Source: Candidatus Uhrbacteria bacterium (lineage in GTDB: Bacteria; Patescibacteriota; Patescibacteriia; UBA9934; GWF2-40-263). From it: 50,301 bases of DNA. Of this stretch, positions 1 through 16,126 are shown piece after piece. Each line of letters begins with the position of its first letter. Position 1 is the first letter of the stretch. Location: the NCBI GenBank assembly GCA_018700535.1, contig JABITQ010000043.1, positions 1 through 50,301 of the forward strand, written 5' to 3'. The notes beneath the pieces are model-generated. The model had not been told where the DNA came from, did no database searches, and saw only the letters and a list, made by a program, of their open reading frames with translations. Position numbers and translations under genes: made by a program.

Positions 1-3
1 ATT

Positions 4-408
4 GTGGTCGAGGCTGAGGAGTCTCGTTACGATGATGTTCCATTAACGATTGCAAAAGATTGGTCAAAAGAAGAAGCGGCTGCGCATGCGATTAAATTGC
101 TCGAGATTCAAAATGGTATTGATGCTGTGTTGGTTGCCCACGAGCTAGCCGCGTGGTCAGAGCGTGTGCTAAAAGCCAGACCAGAGATTCCATTGTTTAT
201 TGCTGCGGCAACAGATCGTGAAGCAAGGCAAACATCATTGCACTGGGCAGCCACAAGCTTTGTGCTTAAAGGACAAAATGAAAAAACATTTTTGCGTCGC
301 GCGATCAAAAAACTTCGTGACACACGGTTGATCAAAAAAGGAATGCGACTTGCGGTGGTGATGGGGGGATCGCACGGGGAAGGGTTTGATGTCGTGACTG
401 TTGAATAG
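4..408 (+). CDS. pyk: pyruvate kinase, C-terminal alpha/beta (PK_C) domain; 5' part outside window
   Basis: ORF open to the left edge. ARPEIPLFIAAATDREARQTSLHW...KKGMRLAVVMGG...DVVTVE follows the PK_C layout (RP..PI.A.T...ARQ..L.WGV ... GD.VV..G). Terminator follows. Confidence 0.55.
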   Translation: MVEAEESRYDDVPLTIAKDWSKEEAAAHAIKLLEIQNGIDAVLVAHELAAWSERVLKARPEIPLFIAAATDREARQTSLHWAATSFVLKGQNEKTFLRRAIKKLRDTRLIKKGMRLAVVMGGSHGEGFDVVTVE

Positions 409-421
409 CACAATCAAAATA

Positions 422-453
422 CCCGCTGACCAGAGATGGTCAGCGGGCTTTTT
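422..453. terminator. intrinsic terminator hairpin, usable in both directions
   Basis: cccgctgacc/ggtcagcggg 10-bp stem, 6-nt loop, then TTTTT. An A/T-rich run on the other side serves convergent gene 465-860. Confidence 0.8.
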
Positions 454-464
454 CGTTCGACGAT

Positions 465-860
465 CTAGTTGATGTCGAGATCTGTGTCTTCTTCGGCCAT
501 GTCAGCAGCAGCATCGATCTCTGCTGCAGCAAGTCTCTCCTGGAGAGCTTGTTCGGCTGTGCTCATCTCCCTGATGGAGCCGAACTTTCGCCAGTCGATG
601 CCATGCAGGTTGAGTTGCAGTGCGAACGTTCCGATCGCATGCCGGCTTTCGCGCGGGATGCTGTTGAATGCGTCAGTCCTGTTCTGCTTGGACGTTTTTT
701 CTGTTGCCAGGTAGTGGGTTGCCACCTCCTGACATGCTTGGATGGCGCTGACGCCATCGAGCGCTGGATCCGGCGTGCTGGTCTGGGGACCTGGCATGAT
801 GCCTGTCCGCGTCTGTGCACTGGAAGCCGGGGTTGGTGTCTGCGAGTGAGTTCGGTTCAC
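465..860 (-). CDS. hypothetical protein (start uncertain)
   Basis: Track ORF 465-971, but promoter 943-971 lies inside its 5' end. First plausible start downstream of the TSS is GTG 860 with GGAG 8 nt upstream. No recognisable domain. Confidence 0.4.
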   Translation of the reverse strand: MNRTHSQTPTPASSAQTRTGIMPGPQTSTPDPALDGVSAIQACQEVATHYLATEKTSKQNRTDAFNSIPRESRHAIGTFALQLNLHGIDWRKFGSIREMSTAEQALQERLAAAEIDAAADMAEEDTDLDIN

Positions 861-942
861 TGTGTCTTCTCCGCTTATATAGAGGGTCAGATGGAATAGG
901 TGGGATCGGATTAGCCCCTCTGTACTAATCACGATATTCGGG

Positions 943-971
943 ATACTAGCCATATATTGGGGTTTTGTCAA
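943..971 (-). promoter_or_regulatory. sigma-70-type promoter TTGACA-N17-TAGTAT
   Basis: Minus strand reads TTGACAaaaccccaatatatggcTAGTAT with an exact 17-nt spacer. Confidence 0.55.
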
Positions 972-985
972 GCGTTTCTGTGTAT

Positions 986-1012
986 GAAAAAAGAGGCCGA
1001 ATGGACCTCTTT
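986..1012 (-). terminator. intrinsic terminator of the 1027-1524 gene
   Basis: agaggcc/ggacctct stem with one bulge, followed on the minus strand by a T6 run. Confidence 0.7.
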
Positions 1013-1026
1013 AACATTGTTGAAGA

Positions 1027-1524
1027 TTATGGATTCAACAAGACTTGCTCACTACTTGTCTCATTTGTGCCAAAGCGTTCAACACCAGTCGACTTAATCA
1101 GCTCTGTTTCAGATACATACCACTTCTCACATCGTGGAGAAATACATGCTTGAAGGACAATATGATACTCAGTCTCTGGTTCGAGTCCTGTGATATCCAA
1201 GGCAAAACGATCATGGTTTCCAGACTCTGCAATCGACTTCTCAGTTAATGGATCTGTGATTGTAAGGACAAAGTGATTGTACTCTCGCTCAGGTGCCTGC
1301 CACTGAATGCGGAATGCGGTTGACGAGCCAAAGACTTCGCCGTCAACTTCTTGCTCGCGGAAAAGCGATGTGCTCATCCCGCCATCAAAAGATTTTTTTG
1401 CTCCTTCGTAAATTTCAGTATGGACTTTTCCTGTCGCGTCGACACCTGTGTTTTGAGTTTGGTAAAACAGCACACCCGCTCCTGCCAACAGACCAAGGAT
1501 CAGTATAGATATTGCGTATTTCAT
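1027..1524 (-). CDS. secreted or membrane-anchored protein with fibronectin-III-like domain
   Basis: Start taken at MKYAISILILGLLAGAGVLF (hydrophobic N-terminus). FRIQWQAPEREYNHFVLTI...GLEPETEYHIVLQAC resembles an FN3 fold signature. Confidence 0.6.
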   Translation of the reverse strand: MKYAISILILGLLAGAGVLFYQTQNTGVDATGKVHTEIYEGAKKSFDGGMSTSLFREQEVDGEVFGSSTAFRIQWQAPEREYNHFVLTITDPLTEKSIAESGNHDRFALDITGLEPETEYHIVLQACISPRCEKWYVSETELIKSTGVERFGTNETSSEQVLLNP

Positions 1525-1532
1525 ATAAAAAG

Positions 1533-1541
1533 ATTCTAGCA
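1533..1541 (-). promoter_or_regulatory. extended -10 promoter (TGcTAGAAT) placed 8 nt before the ATG (leaderless candidate)
   Basis: Minus strand reads TGCTAGAAT-ctttttat-ATG. No Shine-Dalgarno sequence is possible. Confidence 0.45.
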
Positions 1542-1564
1542 TAAAACAAAGGAGAATGTTGGGT

Positions 1565-1856
1565 AAAAGAAATGACCGCCCGTACATCGTTGTACAGGCG
1601 GTCGGATAAGGGGTTCGCTCATTAAGTGTGTTGATCAGGTCACACTCCTATCGTGTTGCCGGTAGACGCCGGACATCTCTTTCCCGCTAGCAAGTACGGG
1701 GGATCTAGAGGTGTTTCTTGAGCCGGGTGGTCACTCTCCACTTAGCTGTCAACGACCGTTCAGCAAAACGAGCCGTTTCGAAACAATAGGGCTGCCGTAA
1801 GCCTTTCTTGGTGACAATGCCACCACACGAATACTGGTCTCAGATGAGCGAACCAG
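1565..1856 (-). ncRNA. candidate structured ncRNA, family unknown
   Basis: ORF-free unit. Promoter 1863-1891; 11-bp closing helix ggttcgctcat (1612-1622) / atgagcgaacc (1844-1854) enclosing ~220 nt with several local hairpins; then terminator hairpin 1574-1603 plus U-tract. Confidence 0.45.
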
Positions 1857-1862
1857 ATTGAG

Positions 1863-1891
1863 AGACTAATACAGACAGGTGATCAAGTCAA
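1863..1891 (-). promoter_or_regulatory. promoter TTGACT-N17-TAGTCT for the candidate ncRNA
   Basis: Exact 17-nt spacer. Predicted TSS falls 1-3 nt before the 5' strand of the closing helix. Confidence 0.5.
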
Positions 1892-2173
1892 CTATGTTGT
1901 GATCAGTAAGTCCAAATCAATACCCATCATTTCGAAGCGATCTGTGATGAGCTTTTTGGCGTCGAGCAAGCCTTTGTTGTAGATGTGCTTCTCGAGCATT
2001 TGTAAATGAAAAGTCAAAATATCCTCAGCAGCCATCATGCCGAGGTCTAGGTCGTGCTCTTTTTTGAAAAACGTTTGAATGCGTTTGGTGGCTTCGGTTC
2101 GTTGTTCGTCTGTAAGAACGTTGAGTCCTCTTTTTTGCTTGGCGATAGTGGCGGGGTTAGAAGTGATTGATGT
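1892..2173 (-). CDS. DUF2164-like small protein; open frame with no canonical start codon
   Basis: Not in the ORF track. Stop-to-stop frame reads ...LTDEQRTEATKRIQTFFKKEHDLDLGMMAAEDILTFHLQMLEKHIYNKGLLDAKKLI... (DUF2164 pattern). No ATG/GTG/TTG upstream of the conserved part. In frame with the TAA of the upstream gene. Confidence 0.55.
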   Translation of the reverse strand, partial: TSITSNPATIAKQKRGLNVLTDEQRTEATKRIQTFFKKEHDLDLGMMAAEDILTFHLQMLEKHIYNKGLLDAKKLITDRFEMMGIDLDLLITT

Positions 2174-3055
2174 TTATTTTAAATCCTGATGCCACTTGGC
2201 AATCTCTGATCCAATCAAGTGAGGGTTGTCCTCTTGGATAAAGTGGATGCCGTCGCCAATGTTGACGTGGGTGAGATTTTTGAAGTTCTCAACAATATAA
2301 TCCGCGTTTGCCTTTTGGATGATCGCTCCTGGGTTGGCGGAGAAGAAGAGTTTTGGGAGGTCTGTTTGGTGGAGCCATTCGCTGTAGGCTTGGATGATGT
2401 TGAACGAGTGTGCTGGCTTGCCATCGATAGGGACTTCCTTTGGCCAGATCATAACCGGCTTTCTACTAGCGATCGTTGGGAACGGAGCTTTGTAATGATC
2501 GAATTCTGTTTTGGTTAATTTCCGTACAATCGTATCGGGAACCATTTTTTTGACGAACATGTTTGCGACGCTGATCATAAGCCATCCAAAGAGTTTTGAT
2601 CGCATCATCAAGAACGAATACTTTAAGCTCTTTGGCATCTCGCTTGAGACCATTGGCTTGTACATCGCTTCCATAAACGCGATGCCTTTCACATTGTCCT
2701 GATGCTCGTGCGCATAACGGAACCCAAGTCCAGACCCCCAGTCGTGGATCACAAGGGTGATGTTTTTAAGCCCCAGCTTCTCAATAAATTTCACAAGATA
2801 ATCGTAGTGATCGTCGTATGTGTAGTCGATGTCAGGCTTGTCAGATTTTCCCATGCCGATCAGGTCTGGGGCAATGCATCTGCCTTGGTTTTGCACATGA
2901 GGAATAATGTTTCGCCACAGATAAGACGATGTTGGGTTCCCGTGCAAAAAGAGAACAGGGTCTCCATCGCCCACATCGATGTAATGCATCTTGGAGCCGT
3001 TCACCTCAAGATAATGTGACTCAAAAGGAAAGTCTGCTGAGATATCTTTGTTCAT
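2174..3055 (-). CDS. haloalkane dehalogenase-type alpha/beta hydrolase (HLD-II / DhaA / Renilla-luciferase-like)
   Basis: LFLHGNPTSSYLWRNIIPH; nucleophile elbow VIHDWGSGLG; FMEAM acid; C-terminal GIHFIQEDNP histidine. Start taken at ATG 3055 (MNKDIS); GTG 3073 is also possible. Confidence 0.85.
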   Translation of the reverse strand: MNKDISADFPFESHYLEVNGSKMHYIDVGDGDPVLFLHGNPTSSYLWRNIIPHVQNQGRCIAPDLIGMGKSDKPDIDYTYDDHYDYLVKFIEKLGLKNITLVIHDWGSGLGFRYAHEHQDNVKGIAFMEAMYKPMVSSEMPKSLKYSFLMMRSKLFGWLMISVANMFVKKMVPDTIVRKLTKTEFDHYKAPFPTIASRKPVMIWPKEVPIDGKPAHSFNIIQAYSEWLHQTDLPKLFFSANPGAIIQKANADYIVENFKNLTHVNIGDGIHFIQEDNPHLIGSEIAKWHQDLK

Positions 3056-3097
3056 ATACACAGAGTGTATCACGTTAGATCGCTCATTTGATCTTTA

Positions 3098-3126
3098 TTG
3101 ACACCCGATACTTATCTTGGTAGTTT
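3098..3126 (+). promoter_or_regulatory. promoter TTGACA-N17-TAGTTT
   Basis: TTGACAcccgatacttatcttggTAGTTT, about 40 nt upstream of ATG 3169. Confidence 0.55.
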
Positions 3127-3168
3127 TTACCCTTCATCAGTTTTGGTGAAGAGCACAAGGGGTACAGT

Positions 3169-3768
3169 ATGAAAAGGTTGAGTATCCATTTTTCGTTTCT
3201 CCTGAGTCCAGGTGTGTTTGGTATGAGGCCTGAGGAATGGGCTTCTGCGAGCGATTGGAAGGATGGAGAGATGAGTTGGAAGAATGTACAAGTCCAGCTT
3301 GGTGTCAGACCTAGCACAGGAAAGGACGATGACGATCTGATACCAGCTGTCTCACATCAGAAGTGTCCCGAGGGTCTCTGGGTGAGGTTCGACAAGCCGC
3401 TCGAGTTCGACATGCGAACGGGGGAGTTTGGTGGGTTGGACAAGCTCAGGAGTCTTCAATCGGTCAATGGTTGTGAACGATGGACTCTTGCTGTGAGGTC
3501 GGGTGCAATCATTCTCGATGATCGTGGGCTTCTGAGGCGGAAGGATGAGAGAAAAGATGATCATGAGACACATATTCGTCCGGTTTCAGGTTCACGGGGA
3601 TGTCTGGAGTGGGAGGTCGAGGTCGCTAGCATTCGCGAAAACATGCATCCAAAGGGGCTGTTTGAATTGAACCAAAGGGCATTCTTTGGTGCCATTCACG
3701 CGGATGTAGAGACGTGGAATGGGGGCTGCACAATTGCGTGGAGGGAATCTCCAGTATCAAAGTCTTGA
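3169..3768 (+). CDS. hypothetical protein
   Basis: 199-aa ORF with its own promoter and a purine-rich stretch before the ATG. No recognisable domain. Confidence 0.5.
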   Translation: MKRLSIHFSFLLSPGVFGMRPEEWASASDWKDGEMSWKNVQVQLGVRPSTGKDDDDLIPAVSHQKCPEGLWVRFDKPLEFDMRTGEFGGLDKLRSLQSVNGCERWTLAVRSGAIILDDRGLLRRKDERKDDHETHIRPVSGSRGCLEWEVEVASIRENMHPKGLFELNQRAFFGAIHADVETWNGGCTIAWRESPVSKS

Positions 3769-3879
3769 ACACGCTCGCGCTCTGTCTCTCATGACAGGGC
3801 GCAATTTGTTTTCAGGTATTCCGCAATTGACAGGATTGCAAAAAAGCTGCAAGTTAACTCAGCACTTATTGGAGGCGGC

Positions 3880-4449
3880 ATGGTGGCTTGCATCAAGTAT
3901 GATTCGGAGATCCAGGCTCTTGCAGCATGTGATCGGAACAGTGCTTTCGAGCTGATGGTAAATAGATATCAGGAGCTCTTGTTTGCTCGCGCATGTTTCA
4001 TTACGAAAGATACTTCTGTTGCCGAGGAGATTGTCCAAGATACGTTCTTGAAGGCAATGAGGGAGACTCGAATCTTCGAACCCGATTTTCGTATCAAAGG
4101 GTGGTTGCAAAAGGTGTGTTTATTCGCGGCTTACAATCATGTTCGAGACAGAAAATCGCGCGCTGACATTCTCGATTGCAACAAACCACAACACTACTCA
4201 CCTGCGGCGCAGGCGAGTAGGGCGAACAACAAACGACGTTCAGAAATGCTCGAGATTTTCCTTAGTCAACTAAGCGAAAATCACAGAGCAGTCCTAGAGC
4301 TCTATTATTGGATGGGGCTTGAGCACAACGAGATTGCAGTAATTCTGGATATCAAACTTGGAACGGTGTGTTCACGACTTGGTCGTGCAAGAGCACGACT
4401 TCGTCATGTGTGCGAAGGAGACCGTGAGTTTCTCTTGTCCTCTATCTAG
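3880..4449 (+). CDS. RNA polymerase sigma factor, ECF (sigma-70 group IV) family
   Basis: Region 2 (EEIVQDTFLKAMRE...WLQKVCLFAAYNHVRDRK) and region 4 HTH (LSENHRAVLELYYWMGLEHNEIAVILDIKLGTVCSRLGRARARLR). GGAGG 5 nt before the ATG. Confidence 0.9.
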   Translation: MVACIKYDSEIQALAACDRNSAFELMVNRYQELLFARACFITKDTSVAEEIVQDTFLKAMRETRIFEPDFRIKGWLQKVCLFAAYNHVRDRKSRADILDCNKPQHYSPAAQASRANNKRRSEMLEIFLSQLSENHRAVLELYYWMGLEHNEIAVILDIKLGTVCSRLGRARARLRHVCEGDREFLLSSI

Positions 4450-4483
4450 AAAGACTGAATGGTACCTTGTGCCATATAAACGC

Positions 4484-4517
4484 AGACGCACTTAACGACA
4501 GGTGCGTCTTTTCGTTT
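4484..4517 (+). terminator. intrinsic terminator after the ECF sigma gene
   Basis: agacgcac/gtgcgtct stem followed by TTTCGTTT. Confidence 0.75.
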
Positions 4518-4543
4518 GCTGAATATTTTGAACCCACACAGTC

Positions 4544-4572
4544 TTGACAGCAGGATCGATTTTCAATACTCT
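4544..4572 (+). promoter_or_regulatory. promoter TTGACA-N17-TACTCT
   Basis: TTGACAgcaggatcgattttcaaTACTCT. It lies inside the 5' end of track ORF 4516-4953 and argues for the later start at 4603. Confidence 0.5.
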
Positions 4573-4602
4573 TGCGGGTCTCCAATTAGAAGGTGGATAC
4601 AA

Positions 4603-4953
4603 ATGAGGATTGCTTTAGAAGCGCTTCGTAAGATCGGGTGGGTTTTCAGGGTTTGTCTTGGGTGGATGAAGAGCGAGAAGCATTTTGAAAAACGAATGCT
4701 CGTTGAAAAGAAGGGGTGGCACATTTGTGATCACCCGTCAGAAAACTTCTTTCTCAAGACAAGGTGCGGATGGGGGACGATCGAGAATGATATCCTCTGC
4801 TTGGGTGTTGGAGTCAAAGGTGGAGTCTATTTGTACACGGGGCGAAACGTGTTCAAGCTTCATCGAAGCGCTGATCCTTTTGTGCAAGGCATTGTTATGG
4901 AGATGATGCACGCAAGAGGAATCGAACCTCCCGCCACAATGACGAAACCATAA
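4603..4953 (+). CDS. hypothetical protein whose last ~15 codons are antisense to a tRNA remnant
   Basis: ATG 4603 preceded by GAAGGTGGA. No domain recognised. The C-terminus ...MMHARGIEPPATMTKP is encoded by the tRNA-like fragment. Confidence 0.4.
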   Translation: MRIALEALRKIGWVFRVCLGWMKSEKHFEKRMLVEKKGWHICDHPSENFFLKTRCGWGTIENDILCLGVGVKGGVYLYTGRNVFKLHRSADPFVQGIVMEMMHARGIEPPATMTKP

Positions 4954-4955
4954 CG
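4907..4955 (-). pseudogene. tRNA 3'-half remnant (anticodon-arm-like + T arm + 3' acceptor strand; no 5' half)
   Basis: Minus strand reads ...GGTTTCGTCATTGTGGCG-GGAGG-TTCGATT-CCTCT-TGCGTGC-A. Canonical T-loop with a 5-bp stem. No complementary GCACGCA 5' acceptor strand and no D arm upstream. Confidence 0.55.
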
Positions 4956-4990
4956 GGTTTCAGATGTGTGACGGGTGGTTTTTTTGTTTC

Positions 4991-5018
4991 CGACGCTAGA
5001 CGTCGACGTCTAGCGTCG
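4991..5018. repeat. 28-nt perfect palindrome, probable terminator of 4603-4953
   Basis: cgacgctagacgtc|gacgtctagcgtcg, flanked by a T-rich run on the left and ATTTTGTTTGTTT on the right. Confidence 0.75.
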
Positions 5019-5030
5019 ATTTTGTTTGTT

Positions 5031-5083
5031 TGAAAAATAAAACGCCCACCAGATGAGCCAGAAGGAGGCTTGTGGTGGGGCGT
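5031..5083 (-). terminator. intrinsic terminator of 5106-5399
   Basis: acgcccacc/ggtggggcgt stem with one bulge, then TTTTATTTTT on the minus strand. Confidence 0.6.
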
Positions 5084-5105
5084 GAGCGAGTGGCTGTTTG
5101 ATGTG

Positions 5106-5399
5106 TCAGCACACGGGCTTTGTTTCATAGCCTCTAGCTGCAACAATGGGGGCAAAGAATTCCTTCATCAACCGATGTTCTTGTGGGTTTGCTTGAGCGC
5201 TGATGTACTTGTTGTCATGTTCGGCATAACAAACAACTCTGTGCTCTTCAAGGTGTTGCATGACGCGTTTTGCAAAATCGATTTCGTAACCAGTCTGCGT
5301 GCATATCTCTTCGAGCGAGAGACCAAAGGCTGGTCCGTTGTAGATCAGGTCGCCGATGACTGTGGCTGCAGTTTCGAGTGTGGTGGTATCTTTACTCAT
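5106..5399 (-). CDS. small winged-helix-like DNA-binding protein (tentative)
   Basis: 97 aa with GGAGG 5 nt before the ATG. LSLEEICTQTGYEIDFAKRVMQHLEEHRVV looks like a wHTH recognition unit. Confidence 0.45.
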   Translation of the reverse strand: MSKDTTTLETAATVIGDLIYNGPAFGLSLEEICTQTGYEIDFAKRVMQHLEEHRVVCYAEHDNKYISAQANPQEHRLMKEFFAPIVAARGYETKPVC

Positions 5400-5542
5400 T
5401 AGTCCTCCGTATCTGTAATATACATTTTGTTTTGCAAGAAAACAAACACTTCTTGATGATTAGATTGGAGTTTTTACCCCACTTGTTATTTTGCACAAGA
5501 CCTTCTAAGGTGCATCTGGATGTATTAAATCTGGAGTTTCAA

Positions 5543-6127
5543 ATGGATACTATCCCCCTGAGTCGCTGGCAACGGATTCAAGGTCGTGCGGCTACGTTTC
5601 TGCTCGGTGTGCTTTTTCCACGGAATCTGAGAAGGCGGGGCTCTGATGCAGATAGGCGAGATGCTGATTTCTCTGCCGGGTTCAAGGAAGATAATGAGGC
5701 GCTGAGGCGGCTTGTAGATCGTCTGGACCCAGAGGTTCGTGCGCTGCTCAACGGTTTCACGACAGGACATGTGTTCGATGCGCTGGAGGCGGTCTCTCTG
5801 TGGCTTGATGAGGAGTTGAGCCACAATCTAGCAAATCACGCTCTTCTGAGTATTGATGGCGATGCGTCGGTCGGTGCCACAAAAGAGATCTCTCGATTGT
5901 TGCTTGGCTTGGAAATAGCCCAGTTCACCAACTTGCGGGCAGATGATTCCGATGAGAAGCGGCCTGATCCGCGTCTCGGACAACTGCTTTTGTGGATGTT
6001 CCATGCTGGCAGAGTCGAACCGCGATTGTTCCCACATCTGTCTGTGAGGTCCAGTACCGACAATCATTTGGTGCTTGTGCGACATTCAGGTCGTGAGCCT
6101 GCGCATGAGCGTTGGTTGTCGCACTAG
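5543..6127 (+). CDS. hypothetical protein
   Basis: Start moved to ATG 5543 (GGAG 8 nt upstream; MDTIPLSRW...). The longer track ORF start overlaps the divergent gene. No domain recognised. Confidence 0.45.
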   Translation: MDTIPLSRWQRIQGRAATFLLGVLFPRNLRRRGSDADRRDADFSAGFKEDNEALRRLVDRLDPEVRALLNGFTTGHVFDALEAVSLWLDEELSHNLANHALLSIDGDASVGATKEISRLLLGLEIAQFTNLRADDSDEKRPDPRLGQLLLWMFHAGRVEPRLFPHLSVRSSTDNHLVLVRHSGREPAHERWLSH

Positions 6128-6228
6128 AACACTCTTACGTTTTGGCTCAGTTGGCTGAGTCAGGTCTACACCGCACCTTGGTCTCAAGGGCGGTATTTTT
6201 GTTTCTCGTTTTAAAATTCGGTCACTAT

Positions 6229-6804
6229 CTAAAGCGTGTCTTTTGGAAGCACAAGAACGTAGATTGCGCTAGCAAGGCAGAACAGTGATGCGACGATGAA
6301 TAGCGCATCGAATCCAAAGGTGCTCGCGATGTACCCACCAAGGAGTGCTCCGACAACGGCTGTGAAGTAGCTCATGGATTCCCAAAAACCCCATTGTCTT
6401 CCGGCTTCGTTTTTTGTGAGGTGTTTTGAATAGACAGCGTCGTAGCTTGGTGAGTAGATAGCTTCACCAAAACCGATGATTCCTTGAACGAGCAAAAGCA
6501 TCCAAATGGATTGAACAAAGGTCAGTAGGAAAAAACCTGATCCAAAAATAATGTATCCAAGCGCTACGATTCGTTCTGGGTGCTTAACTTTGTCTGTGTA
6601 AGAGCCTGATACCAAAACGGTAATCCCGGCAACGAGTGCGAACGCGGCACCTGCATATGAGGCGTCTAAAAGTGAGCCGCCAATTTCTTCGATAAACAAA
6701 GCATAGATAGGACCAATCATTGCTGCCGCCATCAAGATCAGACCATTGGTTGCAAGTAAAATCTTAATCGGTTTGTTTAAAATCTTTTTGTGTTGAACAA
6801 GCAT
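6229..6804 (-). CDS. half-size (6-TM) MFS-like transporter
   Basis: Six hydrophobic segments. The loop GSYTDKVKHPERIV resembles MFS motif A. Only 191 aa. Confidence 0.55.
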   Translation of the reverse strand: MLVQHKKILNKPIKILLATNGLILMAAAMIGPIYALFIEEIGGSLLDASYAGAAFALVAGITVLVSGSYTDKVKHPERIVALGYIIFGSGFFLLTFVQSIWMLLLVQGIIGFGEAIYSPSYDAVYSKHLTKNEAGRQWGFWESMSYFTAVVGALLGGYIASTFGFDALFIVASLFCLASAIYVLVLPKDTL

Positions 6805-6923
6805 GGGTGGATATTAGAAACTTAGTAAAGAATGGGCTGAGCACCTCAATATTCTAATTATATCAAATTACTCAAAAACACCGATTATTCGGTGTTTTTA
6901 CGTTATCTGCGTAGGTACATAGG

Positions 6924-6952
6924 TTGACAAAAGGCCCATTTTATGGTATATT
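6924..6952 (+). promoter_or_regulatory. promoter TTGACA-N17-TATATT (near-identical cassette at 19736-19764)
   Basis: TTGACAaaaggcccattttatggTATATT. Confidence 0.65.
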
Positions 6953-6958
6953 TTCGCG

Positions 6959-7226
6959 TAAATCTTGAAAAATATTCACCTATGTTTCTGGATAATGCGG
7001 AAGAATCTCTGCAAGAGCTCAGAAGGTTTCATCCTTCTGGTCTGCTGTGGAGAATGATGATGATTGCACGAGGAGTGGTTTTCGTGTGAGAGAATAATTG
7101 GGCAAATGCCCGTAGACATTCCGTCATGCGGAGCACTGACCTGGTGAGGCATTCACAAAAGCGAGACCTCCTGCGGATATGCGAACCATTGCTGGTTCAA
7201 ATATCTGCGGGAGGTTGTTTTGTTTT
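6959..7226 (+). ncRNA. orphan promoter-to-terminator unit: candidate sRNA, or mRNA for a 35-aa peptide
   Basis: Strong promoter and a 15-bp terminator stem at 7166-7215 (two G.U pairs that only work on the plus strand) plus a U-tract. Only a 35-codon ATG ORF (6982-7089) without SD. Several internal hairpins. Confidence 0.45.
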
Positions 7227-7267
7227 AATCACAAAACCCCCACAAAAATGTGGGGGTTTATATCGCT

Positions 7268-7921
7268 TCAAACCTCACCGTTCCACTCACGATAAAACTG
7301 ATTCAAAAACTCCTCCATGTATTCGTGACGCTTCTCGGCTATGGTCTTACCAGCCGTTGTGTTCATTCTGTCTTTTAACAGAAGGAGTTTCTCGTAGAAG
7401 TGATTGATGGTTGGGTCGATGTTTTTCTTATACTCTTCTTTTGACATATTTAACTTCGCCGGGATATCTGGGTCGTAAAGTTTTGCTCCTATAAACCCTC
7501 CGTAGTTAAACGTTCGAGCGATGCCGATGGCTCCGATGGCGTCGATTCTGTCTGCGTCTTGAACAAGATCAAGTTCTGGAGATCTAAAAGCTTGCTCATG
7601 GTTTCCACCTTTGAACGAGACATGTCGGATAATATTCTCGACATGAGAAATAACTTCAGTATCAACATCTAACGATTCTAAAAAGACAATGGCTTTCTCA
7701 GGGCCAACGTCCTCATTGCCACCATGAAACTTTGAGTCAGCAATGTCATGAAGGAGAGCGCCAAGCTCAACAACAAGCCGATCAGCTTTTTCATCTTCCA
7801 GAATAAGTTTCGCAAGAGACCAGACTCGAGAGATGTGCCACCAGTCATGGCCACCTTCTGCTTCTGCTAGCGTGTCTTTTACGAAGGTGATTGTTTTTTG
7901 GATGGTTTCGTCGTGGTTCAT
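7268..7921 (-). CDS. HD-domain metal-dependent phosphohydrolase
   Basis: GGHDWWHISRVWSLA...LGALLHDIADSKF (H..HD motif). YedJ/HD superfamily layout. Confidence 0.85.
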   Translation of the reverse strand: MNHDETIQKTITFVKDTLAEAEGGHDWWHISRVWSLAKLILEDEKADRLVVELGALLHDIADSKFHGGNEDVGPEKAIVFLESLDVDTEVISHVENIIRHVSFKGGNHEQAFRSPELDLVQDADRIDAIGAIGIARTFNYGGFIGAKLYDPDIPAKLNMSKEEYKKNIDPTINHFYEKLLLLKDRMNTTAGKTIAEKRHEYMEEFLNQFYREWNGEV

Positions 7922-7992
7922 ATAAGTGAAATTCTATCATAAAATCACAATGAGATTTTTGGGCAGCCTATATTAACTACCCCCAAGATTTC

Positions 7993-8021
7993 TTGACAAT
8001 ATGGGGCTAAATATCTAAGTT
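7993..8021 (+). promoter_or_regulatory. promoter TTGACA-N17-TAAGTT
   Basis: TTGACAatatggggctaaatatcTAAGTT, 40 nt upstream of ATG 8061. Confidence 0.5.
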
Positions 8022-8060
8022 TTCAGTCGGTATCTATACAACCTTAACAAAGGGGGGCAC

Positions 8061-8522
8061 ATGAGTGTTTCAACTGGAATTCCGCCGCTCACAGGTTTAA
8101 TCGCTCGATTGCTGGACGCGCGCGGTTGGGACAATGTTGGCTGGGCAAAGTATCTGAGCTGCAACAAGACATTCGTCGAAGATATTCGAAGGGGAGTCTT
8201 GAGGCCAACAGATGAGATGATGTCCGCCATCCTCTGTGAACTGGAGCGAACTCAAGATAGTTTGATGTCTGAAGACACCAAAGATGCGCTGGCTGCCTTT
8301 TGGGGTCATCTCCACTTTCTCGAAAATCCCGCAATAGGTCTGGACAAACCACCTCACGGTCTTACGTTGAGGGAGGGGGAATCAATCTCTGAGCGGTTTA
8401 CGCGATGGACCAACGAGGGCTGGCTCAGAAACCTGACCTCAAACCTCTATGCCATGCCTCCCGCTCAGCGCCGAGCATTCATCGAAGATCTACCGACGCT
8501 GTTTGAAAAGCACCGCCGGTAA
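8061..8522 (+). CDS. hypothetical protein, possible N-terminal HTH
   Basis: G-rich SD before the ATG. LIARLLDARGWDNVGWAKYLSCNKTFVEDIRRG is vaguely XRE-like. Otherwise unknown. Confidence 0.45.
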   Translation: MSVSTGIPPLTGLIARLLDARGWDNVGWAKYLSCNKTFVEDIRRGVLRPTDEMMSAILCELERTQDSLMSEDTKDALAAFWGHLHFLENPAIGLDKPPHGLTLREGESISERFTRWTNEGWLRNLTSNLYAMPPAQRRAFIEDLPTLFEKHRR

Positions 8523-8532
8523 GCACTCACGT

Positions 8533-8585
8533 CACCCCGCACGAAACCCCTTCGGGTCTACGTTCGTCGGGGTGCTTTTGTTTTT
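8533..8585 (+). terminator. intrinsic terminator
   Basis: caccccgcacgaa / ttcgtcggggtg stem followed by CTTTTGTTTTT. Confidence 0.7.
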
Positions 8586-8593
8586 GAATTTAT

Positions 8594-8628
8594 AAAGTCC
8601 TCACAAAAAGTGAGGACTTTATTTTTTT
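8594..8628 (+). terminator. second hairpin terminator (CACAAAAAGTG loop type)
   Basis: aaagtcctcac/gtgaggacttt stem followed by ATTTTTTT. Confidence 0.7.
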
Positions 8629-8658
8629 GCTAGGTAATTTTTTATCTACATCACTCTA

Positions 8659-8973
8659 TTACAAACACTTATACCCACAACTCTTCAACGTATCCGACAA
8701 CTGAACTTTCAATTGCGCACGCCCATTCCCACCTTTGAGATATTTCTCTCGACGTTTTGCCTCAGTTGCAGTGAGGTAAGATTCTGAGTAGATAAGTTTG
8801 AGTGGGAACCTGTTCTTGTTTGCGGGGACTTTTCCAGATTGATGTTCTTCAAGTCGGCGCTGAATGTCTGTTGAGTAGCCTACATAAAGCTTTCTGTCGC
8901 GCAGACTGAATAGAATATAGACGTGGTGTATATGTCTGAGTATAACAAAACAAGCCGCACTAAGCGGCTTGTT
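8659..8973 (-). CDS. GIY-YIG nuclease-family protein (UPF0213-like); open frame with no canonical start codon
   Basis: Not in the ORF track. Frame reads ...HVYILFSLRDRKLYVGYSTDIQRRLEEHQSGKVPANKNRFPLKLIYSESYLTATEAKRREKYLKGGNGRAQLK... No ATG/GTG/TTG before the domain; only ATA/ATT/CTG are available. Confidence 0.6.
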   Translation of the reverse strand, partial: NKPLSAACFVILRHIHHVYILFSLRDRKLYVGYSTDIQRRLEEHQSGKVPANKNRFPLKLIYSESYLTATEAKRREKYLKGGNGRAQLKVQLSDTLKSCGYKCL

Positions 8974-8975
8974 TT
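8941..8975 (-). terminator. intrinsic terminator closing the tRNA-Asp transcription unit
   Basis: aaaacaagccgc/gcggcttgtttt 12-bp stem with a 5-nt loop. The U-run continues as GUUAUA on the minus strand. Confidence 0.7.
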
Positions 8976-9134
8976 ATCTACCGAGATGATCTCTTGATGA
9001 TCTTTAGAGGTTGCATGGTCTCGATTTGTGACCATGCTGTCGAGCTCAGCTCGACTACCTCGCTGAAGTATAGATCGGTTGGACTGGGGTAAAGCTCAGC
9101 TTTACCGTTGCGCAACCAACCGAGCTCAGCTCGG
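8976..9134 (-). ncRNA. hairpin-rich trailer co-transcribed with tRNA-Asp (candidate structured RNA)
   Basis: Three hairpins with identical C-UGA-G triloops (CCGAGC-UGA-GCUCGG, GGUAAAGC-UGA-GCUUUACC, GUCGAGC-UGA-GCUCGAC). A GAGGU/ACCUC helix closes a three-way junction that contains GCAUGGUC/GACCAUGC. Confidence 0.4.
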
Positions 9135-9211
9135 TGGCGGACCGGACGGGACTCGAACCCGCGGTCTTCGCCGTGACAGGGCGACGTGATAACCAACTAC
9201 ACCACCGGTCC
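9135..9211 (-). tRNA. tRNA-Asp (anticodon GUC), CCA encoded
   Basis: GGACCGGTGGTGTAGTTGGTTATCACGTCGCCCTGTCACGGCGAAGACCGCGGGTTCGAGTCCCGTCCGGTCCGCCA. Cloverleaf with anticodon loop CTGTCAC. Confidence 0.95.
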
Positions 9212-9236
9212 ATCGGTTTATTTGTGCAGCGACGAA

Positions 9237-9265
9237 ATAATAGCACAGGGTTTGTTGGGGTGCAA
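9237..9265 (-). promoter_or_regulatory. promoter TTGCAC-N17-TATTAT for tRNA-Asp
   Basis: The -10 element ends ~25 nt upstream of the tRNA 5' end. Confidence 0.55.
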
Positions 9266-9329
9266 GAGGTTGGTTTGTGTGAAAAATGCTTGGTTTTATT
9301 GAGGGGCTAAATCGTTGGTTAGTCGGCTC

Positions 9330-9368
9330 TAGAAACAGAAAACCCCCCGAAGTCGTAACTAAGGGGGG
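9330..9368 (-). terminator. intrinsic terminator of the TPM-domain gene
   Basis: cccccc/gggggg stem followed by TTTTCTGTTT on the minus strand. Confidence 0.65.
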
Positions 9369-9383
9369 CAGTTGTTGCTGAGC

Positions 9384-10112
9384 TTAGTAGCTGCTGTCGC
9401 CGCCACTTCCATCGGAGTCTCCTCCACCAAAGCCGCTTCCGCCGCTACTGCCACTGGAATAGTCATGGTGGTGCGAACTGGAGAAACCGCTTCCGCTGGA
9501 TCCTCCAGAACCTCCTTTGGTGAACATTGACAGGAAGGCGATGAGGAGGACGATGACGATGATGATGACGATGAACTTGGTTCGTTCTTCATCGGTTGAC
9601 TCATTCGTGACTCTGCTGACATCAGAAGGTGCGTAGATGGTCCCGTTCAAGATGCCGATGATCTGTTCGGTGCCCGCTTCAAGTCCTGCCGCATCTTTGC
9701 CGCTCTTGAACTTGGGCACAACATGATCTGCGAGAATTGCGTCGATCATGCCGTTGGTCAGCTTGTCCTTGAGGCCGGAGCCAGTCTTGATGCTGAGTCC
9801 TCGTTCTTTGCGAGCATTCAGAAGCATCACACCGTTGTTGACGCCCACTTGTCCAACGCCCCATTCTGCCATGAGGTTCTTGGTGTAGCTCTTCGGAATT
9901 TCCGAATTGGTCGTTTCGACGGTCACCACAACCACCTGAGTGGTGGTGTCATTCTCCAGCCCACGCAGTCGCGCCTCCATCCTCGCTTCGACATCTGCCG
10001 GAATGACATTTGCGAAGTCGTGGACGAATTTGCCCGGCATGGGCTTTGGGTAGGCGAGGGCGGTCTGAGACCAGAAGAGCGCAAGAAGCGCGAGATACAG
10101 TGGACGAAACAT
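9384..10112 (-). CDS. TPM-domain (YgcG-like) membrane protein
   Basis: Signal peptide MFRPLYLALLALFWSQTALA. TPM core (FVHDFANVI...TTQVVVVTV...GVMLLNARKERGLSIKTGSGL), then a TM helix and a Gly/Ser/Asp-rich tail. Confidence 0.8.
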   Translation of the reverse strand: MFRPLYLALLALFWSQTALAYPKPMPGKFVHDFANVIPADVEARMEARLRGLENDTTTQVVVVTVETTNSEIPKSYTKNLMAEWGVGQVGVNNGVMLLNARKERGLSIKTGSGLKDKLTNGMIDAILADHVVPKFKSGKDAAGLEAGTEQIIGILNGTIYAPSDVSRVTNESTDEERTKFIVIIIVIVLLIAFLSMFTKGGSGGSSGSGFSSSHHHDYSSGSSGGSGFGGGDSDGSGGDSSY

Positions 10113-10159
10113 CGATGTCTCCAGCTTGATGTTAAACTGGGGATTTCCAGCAACAGGGG

Positions 10160-10188
10160 AGAGTAGTAGAAATAGGGGGTTTTGTCAA
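10160..10188 (-). promoter_or_regulatory. promoter TTGACA-N17-TACTCT
   Basis: TTGACAaaaccccctatttctacTACTCT on the minus strand. Confidence 0.5.
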
Positions 10189-10220
10189 TCTATCAGCTCT
10201 GCTACCATAGGTTCATTCAT

Positions 10221-10550
10221 ATGCATCGATTTATCAAAACATCCATCGCAAGCATCGGACTTCTTGCGTTTTTGTTTGCCCCATCGATGACTGCTGCACA
10301 TGCAGATATTGGAATGAGTGGTGAAATGGATCATGGAGAGATGACTGAGATGGATTGTCTTGAGCATTGCATTGAATTCTCAAACATATTGGATCATGAG
10401 GTGGGAGTCGTTCGGGGTGAGCAGGGTGTGTGGATGAGCGAGAGTGACTCGAGTATTTTTGTTAGACCACAGATTGTTCGTCTTTCTAATAACTTCACAC
10501 CAACACACAAAGACCCTCGGCTCAACCGAATCGTTCCACAAAGAGAATAG
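10221..10550 (+). CDS. small secreted His/Met/Cys-rich protein, putative copper-binding
   Basis: Start at MHRFIKTSIASIGLLAFLFAPSMTAAHA (signal peptide), then DIGMSGEMDHGEMTEMDCLEHC. Sits directly upstream of the copper module. Confidence 0.5.
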   Translation: MHRFIKTSIASIGLLAFLFAPSMTAAHADIGMSGEMDHGEMTEMDCLEHCIEFSNILDHEVGVVRGEQGVWMSESDSSIFVRPQIVRLSNNFTPTHKDPRLNRIVPQRE

Positions 10551-10578
10551 ACCCAGTTACAAAGTTGGTTTGTAATTC

Positions 10579-11946
10579 ATGTCTATTCTTTTTGTTATGG
10601 CAAAACAATATTGTTTCAGTGTTAAAGGAACCACGTGTGCGAGTTGCGAGGTGGTTATCGAGCGAGAGATTCGTCAGCTTGATGGGGTTCTTGGAGTTGA
10701 TGTCTCTCATCCGCGCGGAGAGGTAAGGGTTGATGTTCAAAAGGGGAGAGTGCTTGATCCATCAGAGCTGGATGAGATTTTAGGGAAGCACGGATATCGA
10801 TTTAGATTTCCAGAAGAGCAGGAGGAGCGCGGCGTGTGGAGCTTGAAGAGAATCGGTGCTGTGCTCCTTATTGTTGCGGCAGTTTACTTTGTTCTCGACA
10901 AGGTTGGGTTCTTGGTCTTTAGTCCAACACTCGATGGCTCCAGTGGATTCATCGGAGTGTTTGTTGTTGGGTTGATTGCGTCAGTCTCATCATGCACGGC
11001 TGTCCTCGGAGGGCTTGTCGTCGCGGTGTCTGCTTCTGAGGCAAAGAAAGGGGATGTGCAAACAACCTCAGAGCGCATGCGACCTCATTACTTATTCAAT
11101 GCAGGACGTCTCGCAGGGTTTGTCTTTTTTGGCGCCATCATCGGATTGATCGGCAGTCTCATACAGCTCTCTCCTGCAACAAATGGATTGATGATTCTCG
11201 TGGTCGCATTACTAATGATCGGTCTCGGTATTAATCTCTTAGAGATTGTCCCGCGCGGAGTCACGATACTGCGTCCACCCAAGTGGCTTTCACACAAGAT
11301 CCACGACCTCAGCTCATCGCACCACCCAAACGTTCCATTTTTTCTCGGAGCGCTAACATTCTTTTTACCTTGCGGATTCACACAAGCGATCCAGCTTTAC
11401 GCTCTTTCACTCGGTGACATGAAGTCGTCTGCGATACTGCTTGGAATTTTTGCTCTCGGCACACTTCCTGCTCTTCTTGGGATCGGTGCGATCACATCAT
11501 CTGCAAACGGGAAGAGGTTAAAACGCGTCACTCAATTTGCAGGCGTGCTTGTCCTCGTCCTTGGTGTGAGCAATGTTCAAAACAGCTTCGCACTGCTCGA
11601 CTGGCATCCGCTTTCTTTTACAAGCTCTGGCTACACAATGGATGCATCAACGTTCTCTATAGTAGATGGTGAGCAGGTAATTCAAATGGAGATCAGTGAG
11701 CGCGGGGTGTATATCCCGTCATCTCTTACAGTGGTAGAGGGCGTGCCTGTGCGCTGGGAGATTTTTGGCGCGGACTTTATGGGGTGCGCAGACTCGCTTG
11801 TTATGCGCGGGTTTGGTGTGAGTGAGTATCTTGAATCTGGAATGAATGTGGTTAATTTTATTCCTACAAAGACTGGCGATTTTACGTTTAGCTGCTCGAT
11901 GGGAATGATTCGCGGGACAATGCACGTTGTTGCTAACGAGGTATAA
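10579..11946 (+). CDS. HMA domain - TauE/SafE-like membrane domain - cupredoxin-like domain fusion protein
   Basis: N-terminal CFSVKGTTCASCEVVIE (CxxC HMA), ~7 TM segments, C-terminal VPVRWEI...FSCSMGMIRGTMHVV (cupredoxin-like). ATG 10597 is an alternative start. Confidence 0.75.
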   Translation: MSILFVMAKQYCFSVKGTTCASCEVVIEREIRQLDGVLGVDVSHPRGEVRVDVQKGRVLDPSELDEILGKHGYRFRFPEEQEERGVWSLKRIGAVLLIVAAVYFVLDKVGFLVFSPTLDGSSGFIGVFVVGLIASVSSCTAVLGGLVVAVSASEAKKGDVQTTSERMRPHYLFNAGRLAGFVFFGAIIGLIGSLIQLSPATNGLMILVVALLMIGLGINLLEIVPRGVTILRPPKWLSHKIHDLSSSHHPNVPFFLGALTFFLPCGFTQAIQLYALSLGDMKSSAILLGIFALGTLPALLGIGAITSSANGKRLKRVTQFAGVLVLVLGVSNVQNSFALLDWHPLSFTSSGYTMDASTFSIVDGEQVIQMEISERGVYIPSSLTVVEGVPVRWEIFGADFMGCADSLVMRGFGVSEYLESGMNVVNFIPTKTGDFTFSCSMGMIRGTMHVVANEV

Positions 11947-11955
11947 TAGATTTGT

Positions 11956-14100: not shown

Positions 14101-14109
14101 ATTACTTGC

Positions 14110-14826
14110 ATGAATGCACTAGAGATCAAAGGATTAACAAAGAAATACGACAACACGGTCGCGGTAGATGATTTAAGTATCACTATCAAACGAGGGGAGT
14201 TTGTTGGGTTGCTTGGAAAAAACGGTGCCGGAAAAAGCACGACGATCAAATGTATAACGGGCATCGCGCAGTTTCAGCAGGGAGAAATTTCTGTCATGGG
14301 GTTTGATGTCCAAAAAGATTATCAGGCCGCACGCGACGCGATTGGTCTCTCGCCCCAAGAGTTTAATGCAGATATTTTTGCACCCATCGAAAAAGTCCTC
14401 GACTTTGTTGGTGGTTACTTTGGGATGAACAAAGCTGAGCGTGAGGCGCGGATTGAAGAGCTGCTTGAGCGTTTTGGTTTGACCGATCACAAGGGCAAAC
14501 CTTTTGGAAAGCTCTCTGGCGGGCTAAAGCGTCGGCTCATTCTGGCGCGTGCACTCATGCACAATCCAGACGTGTTAATCCTCGACGAGCCTACTGCTGG
14601 GATCGATGTCGAGCAGCGTCATGCGCTTTGGGAGTATTTGATTGATCTGCACAAAGCAGGGAAGACGATCATCCTCACCTCGCATTATCTCGAGGAGGTG
14701 GAGCGTTTGTGCTCGCGTGTGATCGTGATCGACGAAGGAAAAAAGATCGCTGACCTCACAAAGGATCAGTTTACAAAAGGTGGGAACTCTCTTGAAAAAA
14801 CGTATCTTGAACTTACTCGCGTATGA
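14110..14826 (+). CDS. ABC transporter ATP-binding protein (ABC-2 exporter type)
   Basis: Walker A GKNGAGKST, signature LSGGLKRRL, Walker B LILDEPTAGID. Confidence 0.9.
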   Translation: MNALEIKGLTKKYDNTVAVDDLSITIKRGEFVGLLGKNGAGKSTTIKCITGIAQFQQGEISVMGFDVQKDYQAARDAIGLSPQEFNADIFAPIEKVLDFVGGYFGMNKAEREARIEELLERFGLTDHKGKPFGKLSGGLKRRLILARALMHNPDVLILDEPTAGIDVEQRHALWEYLIDLHKAGKTIILTSHYLEEVERLCSRVIVIDEGKKIADLTKDQFTKGGNSLEKTYLELTRV

Positions 14827-15584: not shown

Positions 15585-15603
15585 GACCTGTGTAAACAAA
15601 GAA

Positions 15604-15641
15604 GCCCCACTGACCAGCATGGTCGGTGGGGCTTTCGTTTT
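15604..15641. terminator. bidirectional intrinsic terminator
   Basis: gccccactgacc/ggtcggtggggc 12-bp stem, TTTCGTTTT on plus and TTCTTTGTTT on minus. Confidence 0.8.
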
Positions 15642-15649
15642 GTGCGATG

Positions 15650-16018: not shown

Positions 16019-16050
16019 TGTCGCTCCGTTTGTTGGTTGGATGACTGAGG

Positions 16051-16079: not shown

Positions 16080-16126
16080 CACTAGCTACTTATCTGTGCC
16101 AACAAAAAAGAAGGCATGAGATGCCT

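What the first reader, a model, noticed from the sequence alone, without database searches (positions are those of the whole stretch)
1565..1891. Self-contained ncRNA gene of unknown family (promoter, 11-bp closing helix, terminator, no ORF)
The 390-nt gap contains TTGACT-N17-TAGTCT on the minus strand. Its predicted TSS falls 1-3 nt before ggttcgctcat, which pairs perfectly with atgagcgaacc 220 nt downstream. A 13-bp terminator hairpin and a U-tract follow directly. Between the helix strands are at least six local hairpins. The downstream gene (1027-1524) has its own extended -10 promoter, so this is not simply a leader. Size and end-to-end pairing recall RNase P, long SRP or 6S-type RNAs, but I could not place their conserved cores.
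Basis: seen in the sequence. Interest (0 to 1): 0.65.

Follow-up and report, generated by a model that had tools for sequence, protein, structure and literature searches.

The report
Orphan candidate small RNA gene
Between two genes of an uncultured marine bacterium lies a roughly 290-base stretch with a convincing promoter, a strong terminator and no protein-coding frame, so it is probably a small non-coding RNA gene, but it matches no known RNA family, occurs in no other organism we could search, and no transcript has been seen.

Summary
The promoter is TTGACT-N17-TAGTCT (1891-1863). A perfect 11-bp end-to-end helix pairs 1854-1844 with 1622-1612. A 13-bp GC-rich terminator hairpin (1603-1574) with a U tract follows. 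There is no credible ORF.

The strongest new evidence is the promoter. TTGAC-N18-TANNNT occurs 19 times in the window against 1.6 expected, and almost every other copy sits just upstream of a gene or the tmRNA. The downstream fn3 gene has its own leaderless promoter, so the region is not its leader.

The case for a special fold is weak:
- The core without the terminator has z = -2.7, which is the 2-5% tail of ordinary coding windows here.
- An 11-bp inverted repeat at this distance is at chance level for 50 kb.

Rfam gives nothing, so RNase P, SRP, 6S and riboswitches are not supported. The sequence is single-copy and invariant in one marine population. It is absent next to the closest homologues of both flanking genes. 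It is undetected in metatranscriptomes that contain this organism's tmRNA.

Verdict: a plausible lineage-restricted sRNA unit sharing the DUF2164 3' UTR and terminator. Function is unknown and interest is modest.

The parts
1886..1891 (-). -35 hexamer TTGACT, immediately after the DUF2164 stop codon (TAG, 1894-1892)
   Evidence: one of 19 TTGAC-N18-TANNNT sites against 1.58 expected
1863..1868 (-). -10 hexamer TAGTCT, 17-nt spacer; fits the organism's TAnnnT / TAGnnT consensus
1854..1858 (-). predicted transcription start (5-9 nt after the -10); inferred, not measured
   Evidence: geometry only
1844..1854 (-). 5' strand of the closing helix, GGUUCGCUCAU
   Evidence: perfect 11 bp; pair probability 0.83-1.0
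1623..1843 (-). predicted core. A second long-range helix pairs 1830-1825 with 1656-1651. Predicted hairpins lie at 1843-1834, 1824-1810, 1803-1790, 1777-1751, 1747-1721, 1710-1677, 1675-1657 and 1647-1624, plus helix 1785-1780/1717-1712. In silico only.
   Evidence: GC 52.7% against 43-46% in the flanking genes
1612..1622 (-). 3' strand of the closing helix, AUGAGCGAACC
1574..1603 (-). intrinsic terminator hairpin, 13 bp (8 GC), loop of 4
   Evidence: the only terminator downstream of DUF2164
1565..1573 (-). U tract AUUUCUUUU; a strain variant has UUUUUUU here
1892..2146 (-). DUF2164 gene. Its transcript must run through the RNA region to the same terminator. The likely start is an ATC codon.
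1533..1541 (-). extended -10 promoter of the fn3 gene (TGcTAGAAT), 8 nt before its ATG (leaderless geometry)
1027..1524 (-). downstream fn3-domain gene; a separate transcription unit

Best explanation
This is a lineage-restricted, independently transcribed non-coding RNA of about 290 nt, nested in the 3' UTR of the DUF2164 gene.

A housekeeping-type promoter (TTGACT-N17-TAGTCT) begins right after the DUF2164 stop codon and starts transcription at about 1856. Polymerase stops at the 13-bp intrinsic terminator (1603-1574 plus the U tract). Read-through from DUF2164 ends at the same terminator, so the same sequence also serves as that mRNA's 3' UTR. The terminator also shields the leaderless promoter of the fn3 gene from upstream transcription.

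The product is most likely a regulatory small RNA, acting by base pairing or by binding a protein, with its ends held together by the 11-bp helix.

Shown from sequence: promoter match, terminator, absence of an ORF, independence from fn3.
Inferred: that the RNA accumulates, that it adopts the predicted fold, and any regulatory role.
For: - The promoter pattern is enriched 12-fold over chance (19 against 1.58), and the other copies are correctly placed before genes and the tmRNA. A chance match in this 330-nt stretch on this strand is expected about 0.005 times.
- The terminator is strong and on the same strand, and a strain variant has a perfect U7 tract.
- There is no credible ORF and no Pfam hit in any frame.
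- The core is GC-enriched: 52.7% against 43-46% in the flanking genes and 26% in the spacer.
- The fn3 gene has its own extended -10 promoter with a leaderless start. The same geometry occurs in the relative L001 and at gene 7268-7921.
- The whole transcript folds with z = -4.8, and the centroid equals the MFE structure.
Against: - No transcript was seen. There are zero contigs on the region in eight metatranscriptome runs (X5-X12), five of which contain this organism's tmRNA at depth 9-55. No mRNA from window 1-20000, laid in four of those runs, is detectable either, so this only excludes high abundance.
- No homologue was found outside one population, so no covariation test is possible.
- The core fold z of -2.7 is strand-symmetric and within the 2-5% tail of coding controls.
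- An 11-bp inverted repeat at this distance is at chance level.
- No GNRA or UNCG tetraloops, no repeated GGA motifs, and no striking target complementarity in the window.
Confidence: 0.5

Rival explanations
1. It is only a long 3' UTR and terminator region of the DUF2164 mRNA that also insulates the fn3 promoter. The promoter-like site is weak or incidental, and the RNA has no function of its own.
For: - There is no terminator between the DUF2164 stop codon and 1603, so the mRNA must include this region.
- There is no conservation and no transcript evidence.
- The core fold is not exceptional.
- The two closest DUF2164 homologues end with a terminator or a convergent gene within about 50 nt.
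Against: - The promoter fits an organism-specific consensus that is 12-fold enriched and otherwise correctly placed.
- 290 nt of GC-rich sequence is far more than termination requires.
Confidence: 0.2
2. It is a regulatory leader (riboswitch or attenuator) of the fn3 gene. A sensor domain closed by the 11-bp helix would control the terminator, and read-through would express fn3.
For: - The order promoter, closed structured domain, terminator, gene is the classic layout.
- Segment 1705-1694 (GAUCCCCCGUAC) can pair with the 3' arm of the terminator at 11 of 12 positions counting G-U, giving a possible antiterminator.
Against: - fn3 has no SD and sits 8 nt after an extended -10 (leaderless geometry), as it does in the relative, where the upstream gap is only 77 nt and holds no such RNA.
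- No riboswitch model matches.
- The helix's 3' strand does not overlap the terminator.
- The antiterminator pairing is at chance level: about 2 such repeats are expected in 341 nt (own calculation).
Confidence: 0.1
3. It is a decayed remnant of a small gene, or of a mobile element with 11-bp terminal inverted repeats, that has kept an old promoter and terminator.
For: - GC content resembles coding DNA.
- The locus is variable between strains: the hydrolase is an indel, and there are divergent tracts on both sides.
- It lies at a synteny break relative to L001.
- The terminal inverted repeats look like those of a MITE.
Against: - It is single copy. Read depth equals that of the flanks, unitigs run across both ends, and there is no second copy in the 50-kb window by nhmmer or the covariance model.
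- No target-site duplication is visible.
- No frame matches any Pfam family.
- No similarity to plasmid, phage or viral collections.
Confidence: 0.13
4. It is a divergent member of a housekeeping RNA family (RNase P, SRP, 6S) or another Rfam family.
For: - It pairs end to end and is 240-290 nt long.
- Short strings recall RNase P segments (ACCACCCGGCUCAAG, GGGAAAG...UCCGG), by own reading from memory of the E. coli sequence.
Against: - No Rfam hit even at E <= 10 with relaxed filters on 700 nt.
- The RNase P-like strings are in the wrong order and pair locally in the fold.
- It is not assembled where tmRNA is at depth 9-55.
Confidence: 0.02

Closest known systems
3'UTR-embedded sRNAs with their own promoter ('type I' 3'UTR-derived sRNAs such as MicL and DapZ of enterobacteria; named from my own knowledge, not tested here)
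   Same: The promoter lies at the very end of the upstream gene. The sRNA shares the mRNA's intrinsic terminator. It has no ORF. The primary transcript is a few hundred nt (MicL is about 300 nt).
   Different: Here the promoter starts just after the stop codon rather than inside the CDS. It is of the housekeeping type rather than stress-sigma dependent. No Hfq link, target, processing or expression is known, and there is no conservation beyond one population.
RNase P RNA, 6S RNA and SRP RNA (Rfam RF00010/RF00011, RF00013, RF00169/RF01854)
   Same: The 5' and 3' ends pair, and the size class is similar.
   Different: No covariance-model match. The predicted architecture is a multi-hairpin junction. 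It is not abundant where tmRNA is.
Riboswitch or attenuator leaders with a terminator expression platform
   Same: The order is promoter, domain closed by a P1-like helix, intrinsic terminator, gene.
   Different: The downstream gene is leaderless with its own promoter. The relative lacks the leader. P1 and the terminator do not overlap. No Rfam aptamer matches.
Retron msr-msd ncRNA
   Same: Inverted repeats flank a structured ncRNA of 200-250 nt.
   Different: There is no reverse transcriptase gene on either side. The neighbours are DUF2164, an alpha/beta hydrolase and an fn3 protein.
MITEs and other small non-autonomous elements
   Same: Perfect 11-bp terminal inverted repeats enclose about 240 bp that folds well on both strands.
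   Different: It is single copy by depth and by search, with no target-site duplication.

Membership tests
Bacterial RNase P RNA (type A/B) | Match to the covariance model, including the P4 pseudoknot strands (CR-I, CR-V) in the correct order | tested here: not met
   No hit at gathering or at E <= 10. The look-alike strings are in reversed order and pair locally.
6S RNA | Rod-like fold with a large central bubble; high cellular abundance | tested here: not met
   No Rfam hit. The MFE and centroid structures are a multi-branch junction with 8 hairpins. There are zero contigs where tmRNA depth is 9-55. Abundance can depend on conditions.
SRP RNA (small or large bacterial) | Conserved domain IV (helix 8) motif and a model match | tested here: not met
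   No hit.
Known riboswitch classes | Aptamer model match and control of the downstream gene's expression platform | tested here: not met
   No hit. fn3 has its own leaderless promoter. The relative has no leader.
Retron ncRNA | Adjacent reverse transcriptase gene | tested here: not met
   Pfam on the neighbours gives DUF2164, Abhydrolase and fn3, with no RT.
MITE | Terminal inverted repeats | tested here: met
   11-bp perfect inverted repeat at both ends.
MITE | Multiple copies per genome and a target-site duplication | tested here: not met
   Depth equals the flanks and unitigs span both ends. There is no second copy in the window. No duplication is visible. Only 50 kb of the genome could be searched.
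Independent sRNA gene / type I 3'UTR-embedded sRNA | Own promoter at the end of the upstream gene | tested here: met
   TTGACT-N17-TAGTCT abuts the stop codon. The pattern is enriched 19 against 1.58. This is sequence evidence only.
Independent sRNA gene / type I 3'UTR-embedded sRNA | Intrinsic terminator shared with the upstream mRNA; no ORF | tested here: met
Independent sRNA gene / type I 3'UTR-embedded sRNA | A discrete transcript with a primary 5' end | tested here: inconclusive
   No contigs in eight metatranscriptome runs (X5-X12). No mRNA from window 1-20000, laid in four of those runs, is detectable either. Only assembled contigs could be examined, not raw reads.
Conserved structured ncRNA (any new class) | Homologues in other lineages with compensatory base changes | tested here: not met
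   Only identical copies were found (L010, L011, runs X1-X4 and X20-X22). Nothing in genome, viral, plasmid or phage collections or in relatives' loci. Search sensitivity was limited.

The most novel reading that the evidence does not exclude
The region is the first seen representative of a new class of roughly 240-nt multi-helix structured RNA (closing helix plus two nested junctions). It would be confined to a poorly sampled marine bacterial lineage and have a specific ligand- or protein-binding function.
Probability: 0.1. Interest if true: 0.55.

Novelty: new member of a known kind. Interest (0 to 1): 0.3.

Why it matters
If it is real, it adds one orphan sRNA to an uncultured marine bacterium whose proteins are mostly unannotated.

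The analysis also yields this organism's promoter grammar, which can be used to annotate its genome and find further RNA genes:
- TTGACA-N17-TAnnnT promoters.
- A second class of extended -10 promoters with leaderless starts.

With no conservation, expression or target, it does not bear on any open question at present.

Tried and rejected
- **Rfam**: gathering thresholds on the whole window and E <= 10 on 1400-2100 gave only noise.
- **RNase P threading by eye**: motifs are in the wrong order and pair locally, so rejected.
- **Expression**: the region was laid on eight metatranscriptome runs and found empty. The tmRNA control was positive in the four runs tested, and tmRNA words are also held by a fifth run, X7.
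- **Population variation for covariation**: the RNA is invariant in 7 DNA runs and 2 JGI contigs.
- **Synteny via the fn3 protein**: the only homologue has no RNA upstream.
- **Synteny via the hydrolase**: it is horizontally spread and shows no synteny.
- **Synteny via DUF2164**: the closest homologues, L012 and L013, have no RNA.
- **Fuzzy nucleotide search**: a stop-free frame of the RNA was submitted as a pseudo-protein. Genomes gave none, viral contigs gave none, and metagenomes gave only the same population.
- **blastn against plasmids and phages**: none.
- **Covariance model R1 on the window and all loci**: it finds only itself.
- **Target search**: duplex energies and exact complementarity in the window were uninformative; the longest match is 12 nt, about the chance level.
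- **Small-ORF reading**: a 32-codon frame begins with ATC at the predicted TSS, and there is a 33-aa GTG ORF. Neither has a canonical leaderless AUG, an SD or a family hit.
- **Taxon**: not determined. The only named relative of any flanking gene is a MAG labelled Candidatus Uhrbacteria, which is not evidence for the window's lineage.

Full report
**1. What is in the sequence**

Read on the minus strand, the gap lies between the DUF2164 gene (stop codon TAG, 1894-1892) and the fn3-domain gene (ATG at 1524). In order it contains:
- TTGACT (1891-1886)
- a 17-nt spacer
- TAGTCT (1868-1863)
- GGTTCGCTCAT (1854-1844)
- 221 nt
- ATGAGCGAACC (1622-1612)
- 8 nt
- a 13-bp hairpin with 8 GC pairs (1603-1574)
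- ATTTCTTTT

The longest ORF inside the unit on this strand is 33 aa, starts with GTG and has no Shine-Dalgarno sequence. None of the stop-free peptides in six frames hits Pfam. The only correction is that the terminator follows the helix after 8 nt rather than directly.

**2. Is it more than chance?**

The promoter is. TAGTCT is a poor match to TATAAT and was missed by the generic scan. But TTGAC-N18-TANNNT occurs 19 times in the window against 1.58 expected, and no shuffle out of 100 reached 19. Of the 19 sites:
- 13 lie 6-80 nt upstream of the next ORF start.
- Two more lie 127 and 144 nt upstream of an ORF.
- One lies about 150 nt upstream of the tmRNA.

This is the organism's real promoter grammar (-35 TTGACA, -10 TAnnnT, frequently TAGnnT), and the site at 1891-1863 is a regular member. 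A chance match in this stretch and orientation is expected about 0.005 times.

The terminator is far stronger than the scan's minimum criteria. A strain variant (JGI contig L010 and a contig of run X2) has an uninterrupted TTTTTTT after the same stem.

The structural evidence is weaker:
- An 11-bp inverted repeat more than 100 nt apart occurs twice in 50 kb, the other one inside a coding region. That is about the chance expectation.
- The whole transcript folds with z = -4.8, but much of that is the terminator.
- The 251-nt core gives z = -2.7, with the same value on the opposite strand.
- In 45 random 243-nt coding windows of the same genome the mean z was -0.76 (sd 1.05). One window reached -2.7 and eight reached -2.
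- Several other intergenic regions fold much more strongly because of long palindromes.

In favour of a structured RNA:
- The core is 52.7% GC, against 43-46% in the flanking genes and 26% in the spacer before fn3.
- The centroid structure equals the MFE structure.

**3. Relation to the neighbours**

The fn3 gene has TGcTAGAAT followed by 8 nt and ATG, with no Shine-Dalgarno sequence. Three observations support an independent, leaderless fn3 transcript:
- Gene 7268-7921 shows the same TTTTATGnTAGAAT-N8/9-ATG arrangement.
- In the only fn3 homologue (P0002, 46% identity) the layout is TACGAT, 8 nt, ATG, inside a 77-nt gap next to a divergent gene.
- Several other genes in the window show the -10 followed by 8-11 nt and ATG.

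So the structured region is not a conserved leader of fn3.

DUF2164 has no terminator of its own, so its mRNA must run through the region to 1574. The RNA promoter therefore sits at the start of that gene's 3' UTR and shares its terminator.

The two closest DUF2164 homologues (61-62% identity; L012 and L013, the latter a MAG labelled Candidatus Uhrbacteria) are followed within about 50 nt by a terminator or a convergent gene and carry no such RNA. The hydrolase upstream is horizontally spread and shows no synteny elsewhere. It is even absent in a strain variant of the same population (L011).

**4. Known families**

Rfam 15 finds only the tmRNA and a tRNA in the window. With relaxed filters at E <= 10 it finds nothing meaningful in 1400-2100. 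Strings that recall RNase P occur in the wrong order and pair locally. The predicted architecture is a closing helix, a second 6-bp long-range helix and eight hairpins. This is not a 6S-like rod. No reverse transcriptase gene is adjacent, so it is not a retron.

**5. Conservation**

The sequence is single copy. Its read depth equals that of the flanks, and unitigs cross both ends.

It is 100% identical in seven marine DNA runs and two JGI contigs. Divergence begins on both sides of it:
- 16 SNPs in 2042-2163.
- Five differences in 1562-1573.

These look like recombination-tract boundaries. They do not show specific constraint, because the fn3 gene is equally invariant in L011.

No diverged homologue was found by any of the following:
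- nhmmer or the covariance model R1 in the window and in relatives' loci.
- A degenerate-pattern scan of 185,579 species genomes and of viral contigs.
- blastn against plasmids and phages.

These searches have limited sensitivity, and the organism's own species is not in the genome collection. Covariation cannot be tested.

**6. Expression**

Five metatranscriptomes contain this organism's tmRNA. In the four laid on it, contigs have mature-like ends and word depth 9-55. None of the five has a contig on 1000-2300. Three further metatranscriptome runs (X5, X6, X12) are also empty on the region. In the four runs laid on the first 20 kb, no genuine contig was found anywhere there. This argues against a very abundant housekeeping RNA. 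It is uninformative for an sRNA of ordinary abundance.

**7. Interpretation**

The most likely reading (about 0.5) is a real, lineage-restricted non-coding transcription unit: an orphan sRNA of about 290 nt that starts at about 1856 and ends at the DUF2164 terminator. It is analogous in layout to 3'UTR-embedded sRNAs with their own promoter (a comparison from my own knowledge). Its terminator also insulates the leaderless fn3 promoter. The regulatory mode, base pairing or protein binding, is inferred. No target stood out in the window.

Rivals:
- A functionless long 3' UTR with an incidental promoter (0.2).
- An attenuator of fn3 (0.1). A possible antiterminator pairs 1705-1694 with the terminator's 3' arm, but it is at chance level.
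- A decayed gene or element remnant (0.13).
- A divergent member of a known family (0.02).

**8. Verdict**

The interpretation as a self-contained RNA gene of unknown family is plausible on promoter and terminator evidence. The resemblance to RNase P, SRP or 6S is not supported. Conservation and expression, the two tests that would make it interesting, came back empty with the data available. Novelty is a new, unverified member of a known kind. Interest is 0.3.

Noticed in passing
window, 19 sites listed (e.g. 943-971 -, 3098-3126 +, 46890-46918 -): The organism uses a very regular promoter, TTGACA-N17-TAnnnT, found 19 times against 1.6 expected. Most sites lie 6-80 nt before ORF starts, and several imply leaderless or near-leaderless mRNAs.
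   Followed up: partly
window 1533-1545 (-) and 7930-7943 (-): A second promoter class: TTTTATGnTAGAAT followed by 8-9 nt and ATG, with no -35 and no SD. It is shared by the fn3 gene and gene 7268-7921. The fn3 homologue in L001 has the same -10-to-ATG spacing.
   Followed up: partly
window 1892-2167 (-): The DUF2164 reading frame has no ATG, GTG or TTG start. Alignment with 84-aa homologues places the initiator at an ATC codon (2146-2144). The frame is continuous with the hydrolase frame apart from its TAA stop codon.
   Followed up: partly
window 2042-3100; L011 1-203: The haloalkane-dehalogenase-like hydrolase is a strain-level indel. JGI contig L011 has unrelated sequence (a divergent gene start) left of 2172 and 16 SNPs in 2042-2163, then is identical to the window. 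The same variant appears in runs X1 and X21. The hydrolase's nearest homologues (about 70% identity) include proteins annotated from Bacteroidetes, which suggests horizontal acquisition.
   Followed up: partly
window 31070-31257 (-): A second promoter-plus-terminator unit without an ORF. The promoter is TTGACC-N17-TATTCT (31257-31229). A hairpin with a U tract lies at 31194-31172 (bidirectional), and another terminator at 31101-31083. Fold z = -4.9.
   Followed up: partly
window 25740-26131 (-), promoter 26316-26288: The tmRNA is found by Rfam (123.9 bits) but not called by ARAGORN. The tag reading frame gives an unusually long 22-aa tag, ANNVMAKIKNAFSVPALAPVLA. The consensus promoter lies about 150 nt upstream of the mature 5' end. 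It is expressed in at least five marine metatranscriptomes.
   Followed up: partly
window 31645-40167 (+): A block at 56-62% GC, against 45-50% elsewhere, encodes three proteins with MopE-like putative metal-binding motifs. One has 1116 aa and 14 repeats. Long overlapping ORFs occur on the opposite strand, as expected from the composition.
   Followed up: no
window 6805-7267, 8523-8977, 19707-19964, 34220-34864, 45565-45723: These intergenic regions have much stronger fold z-scores (-6 to -10) than the finding itself. The scores are driven by long palindromes, e.g. perfect 26-nt arms with no loop at 45633-45684 and 27-nt arms at 19879-19944. They match nothing in Rfam.
   Followed up: no
L013 2400-3400: In the MAG labelled Candidatus Uhrbacteria, composition jumps from about 42% GC (DUF2164) to about 62% GC in the convergent downstream gene. 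This may reflect a foreign segment or a chimeric contig.
   Followed up: no
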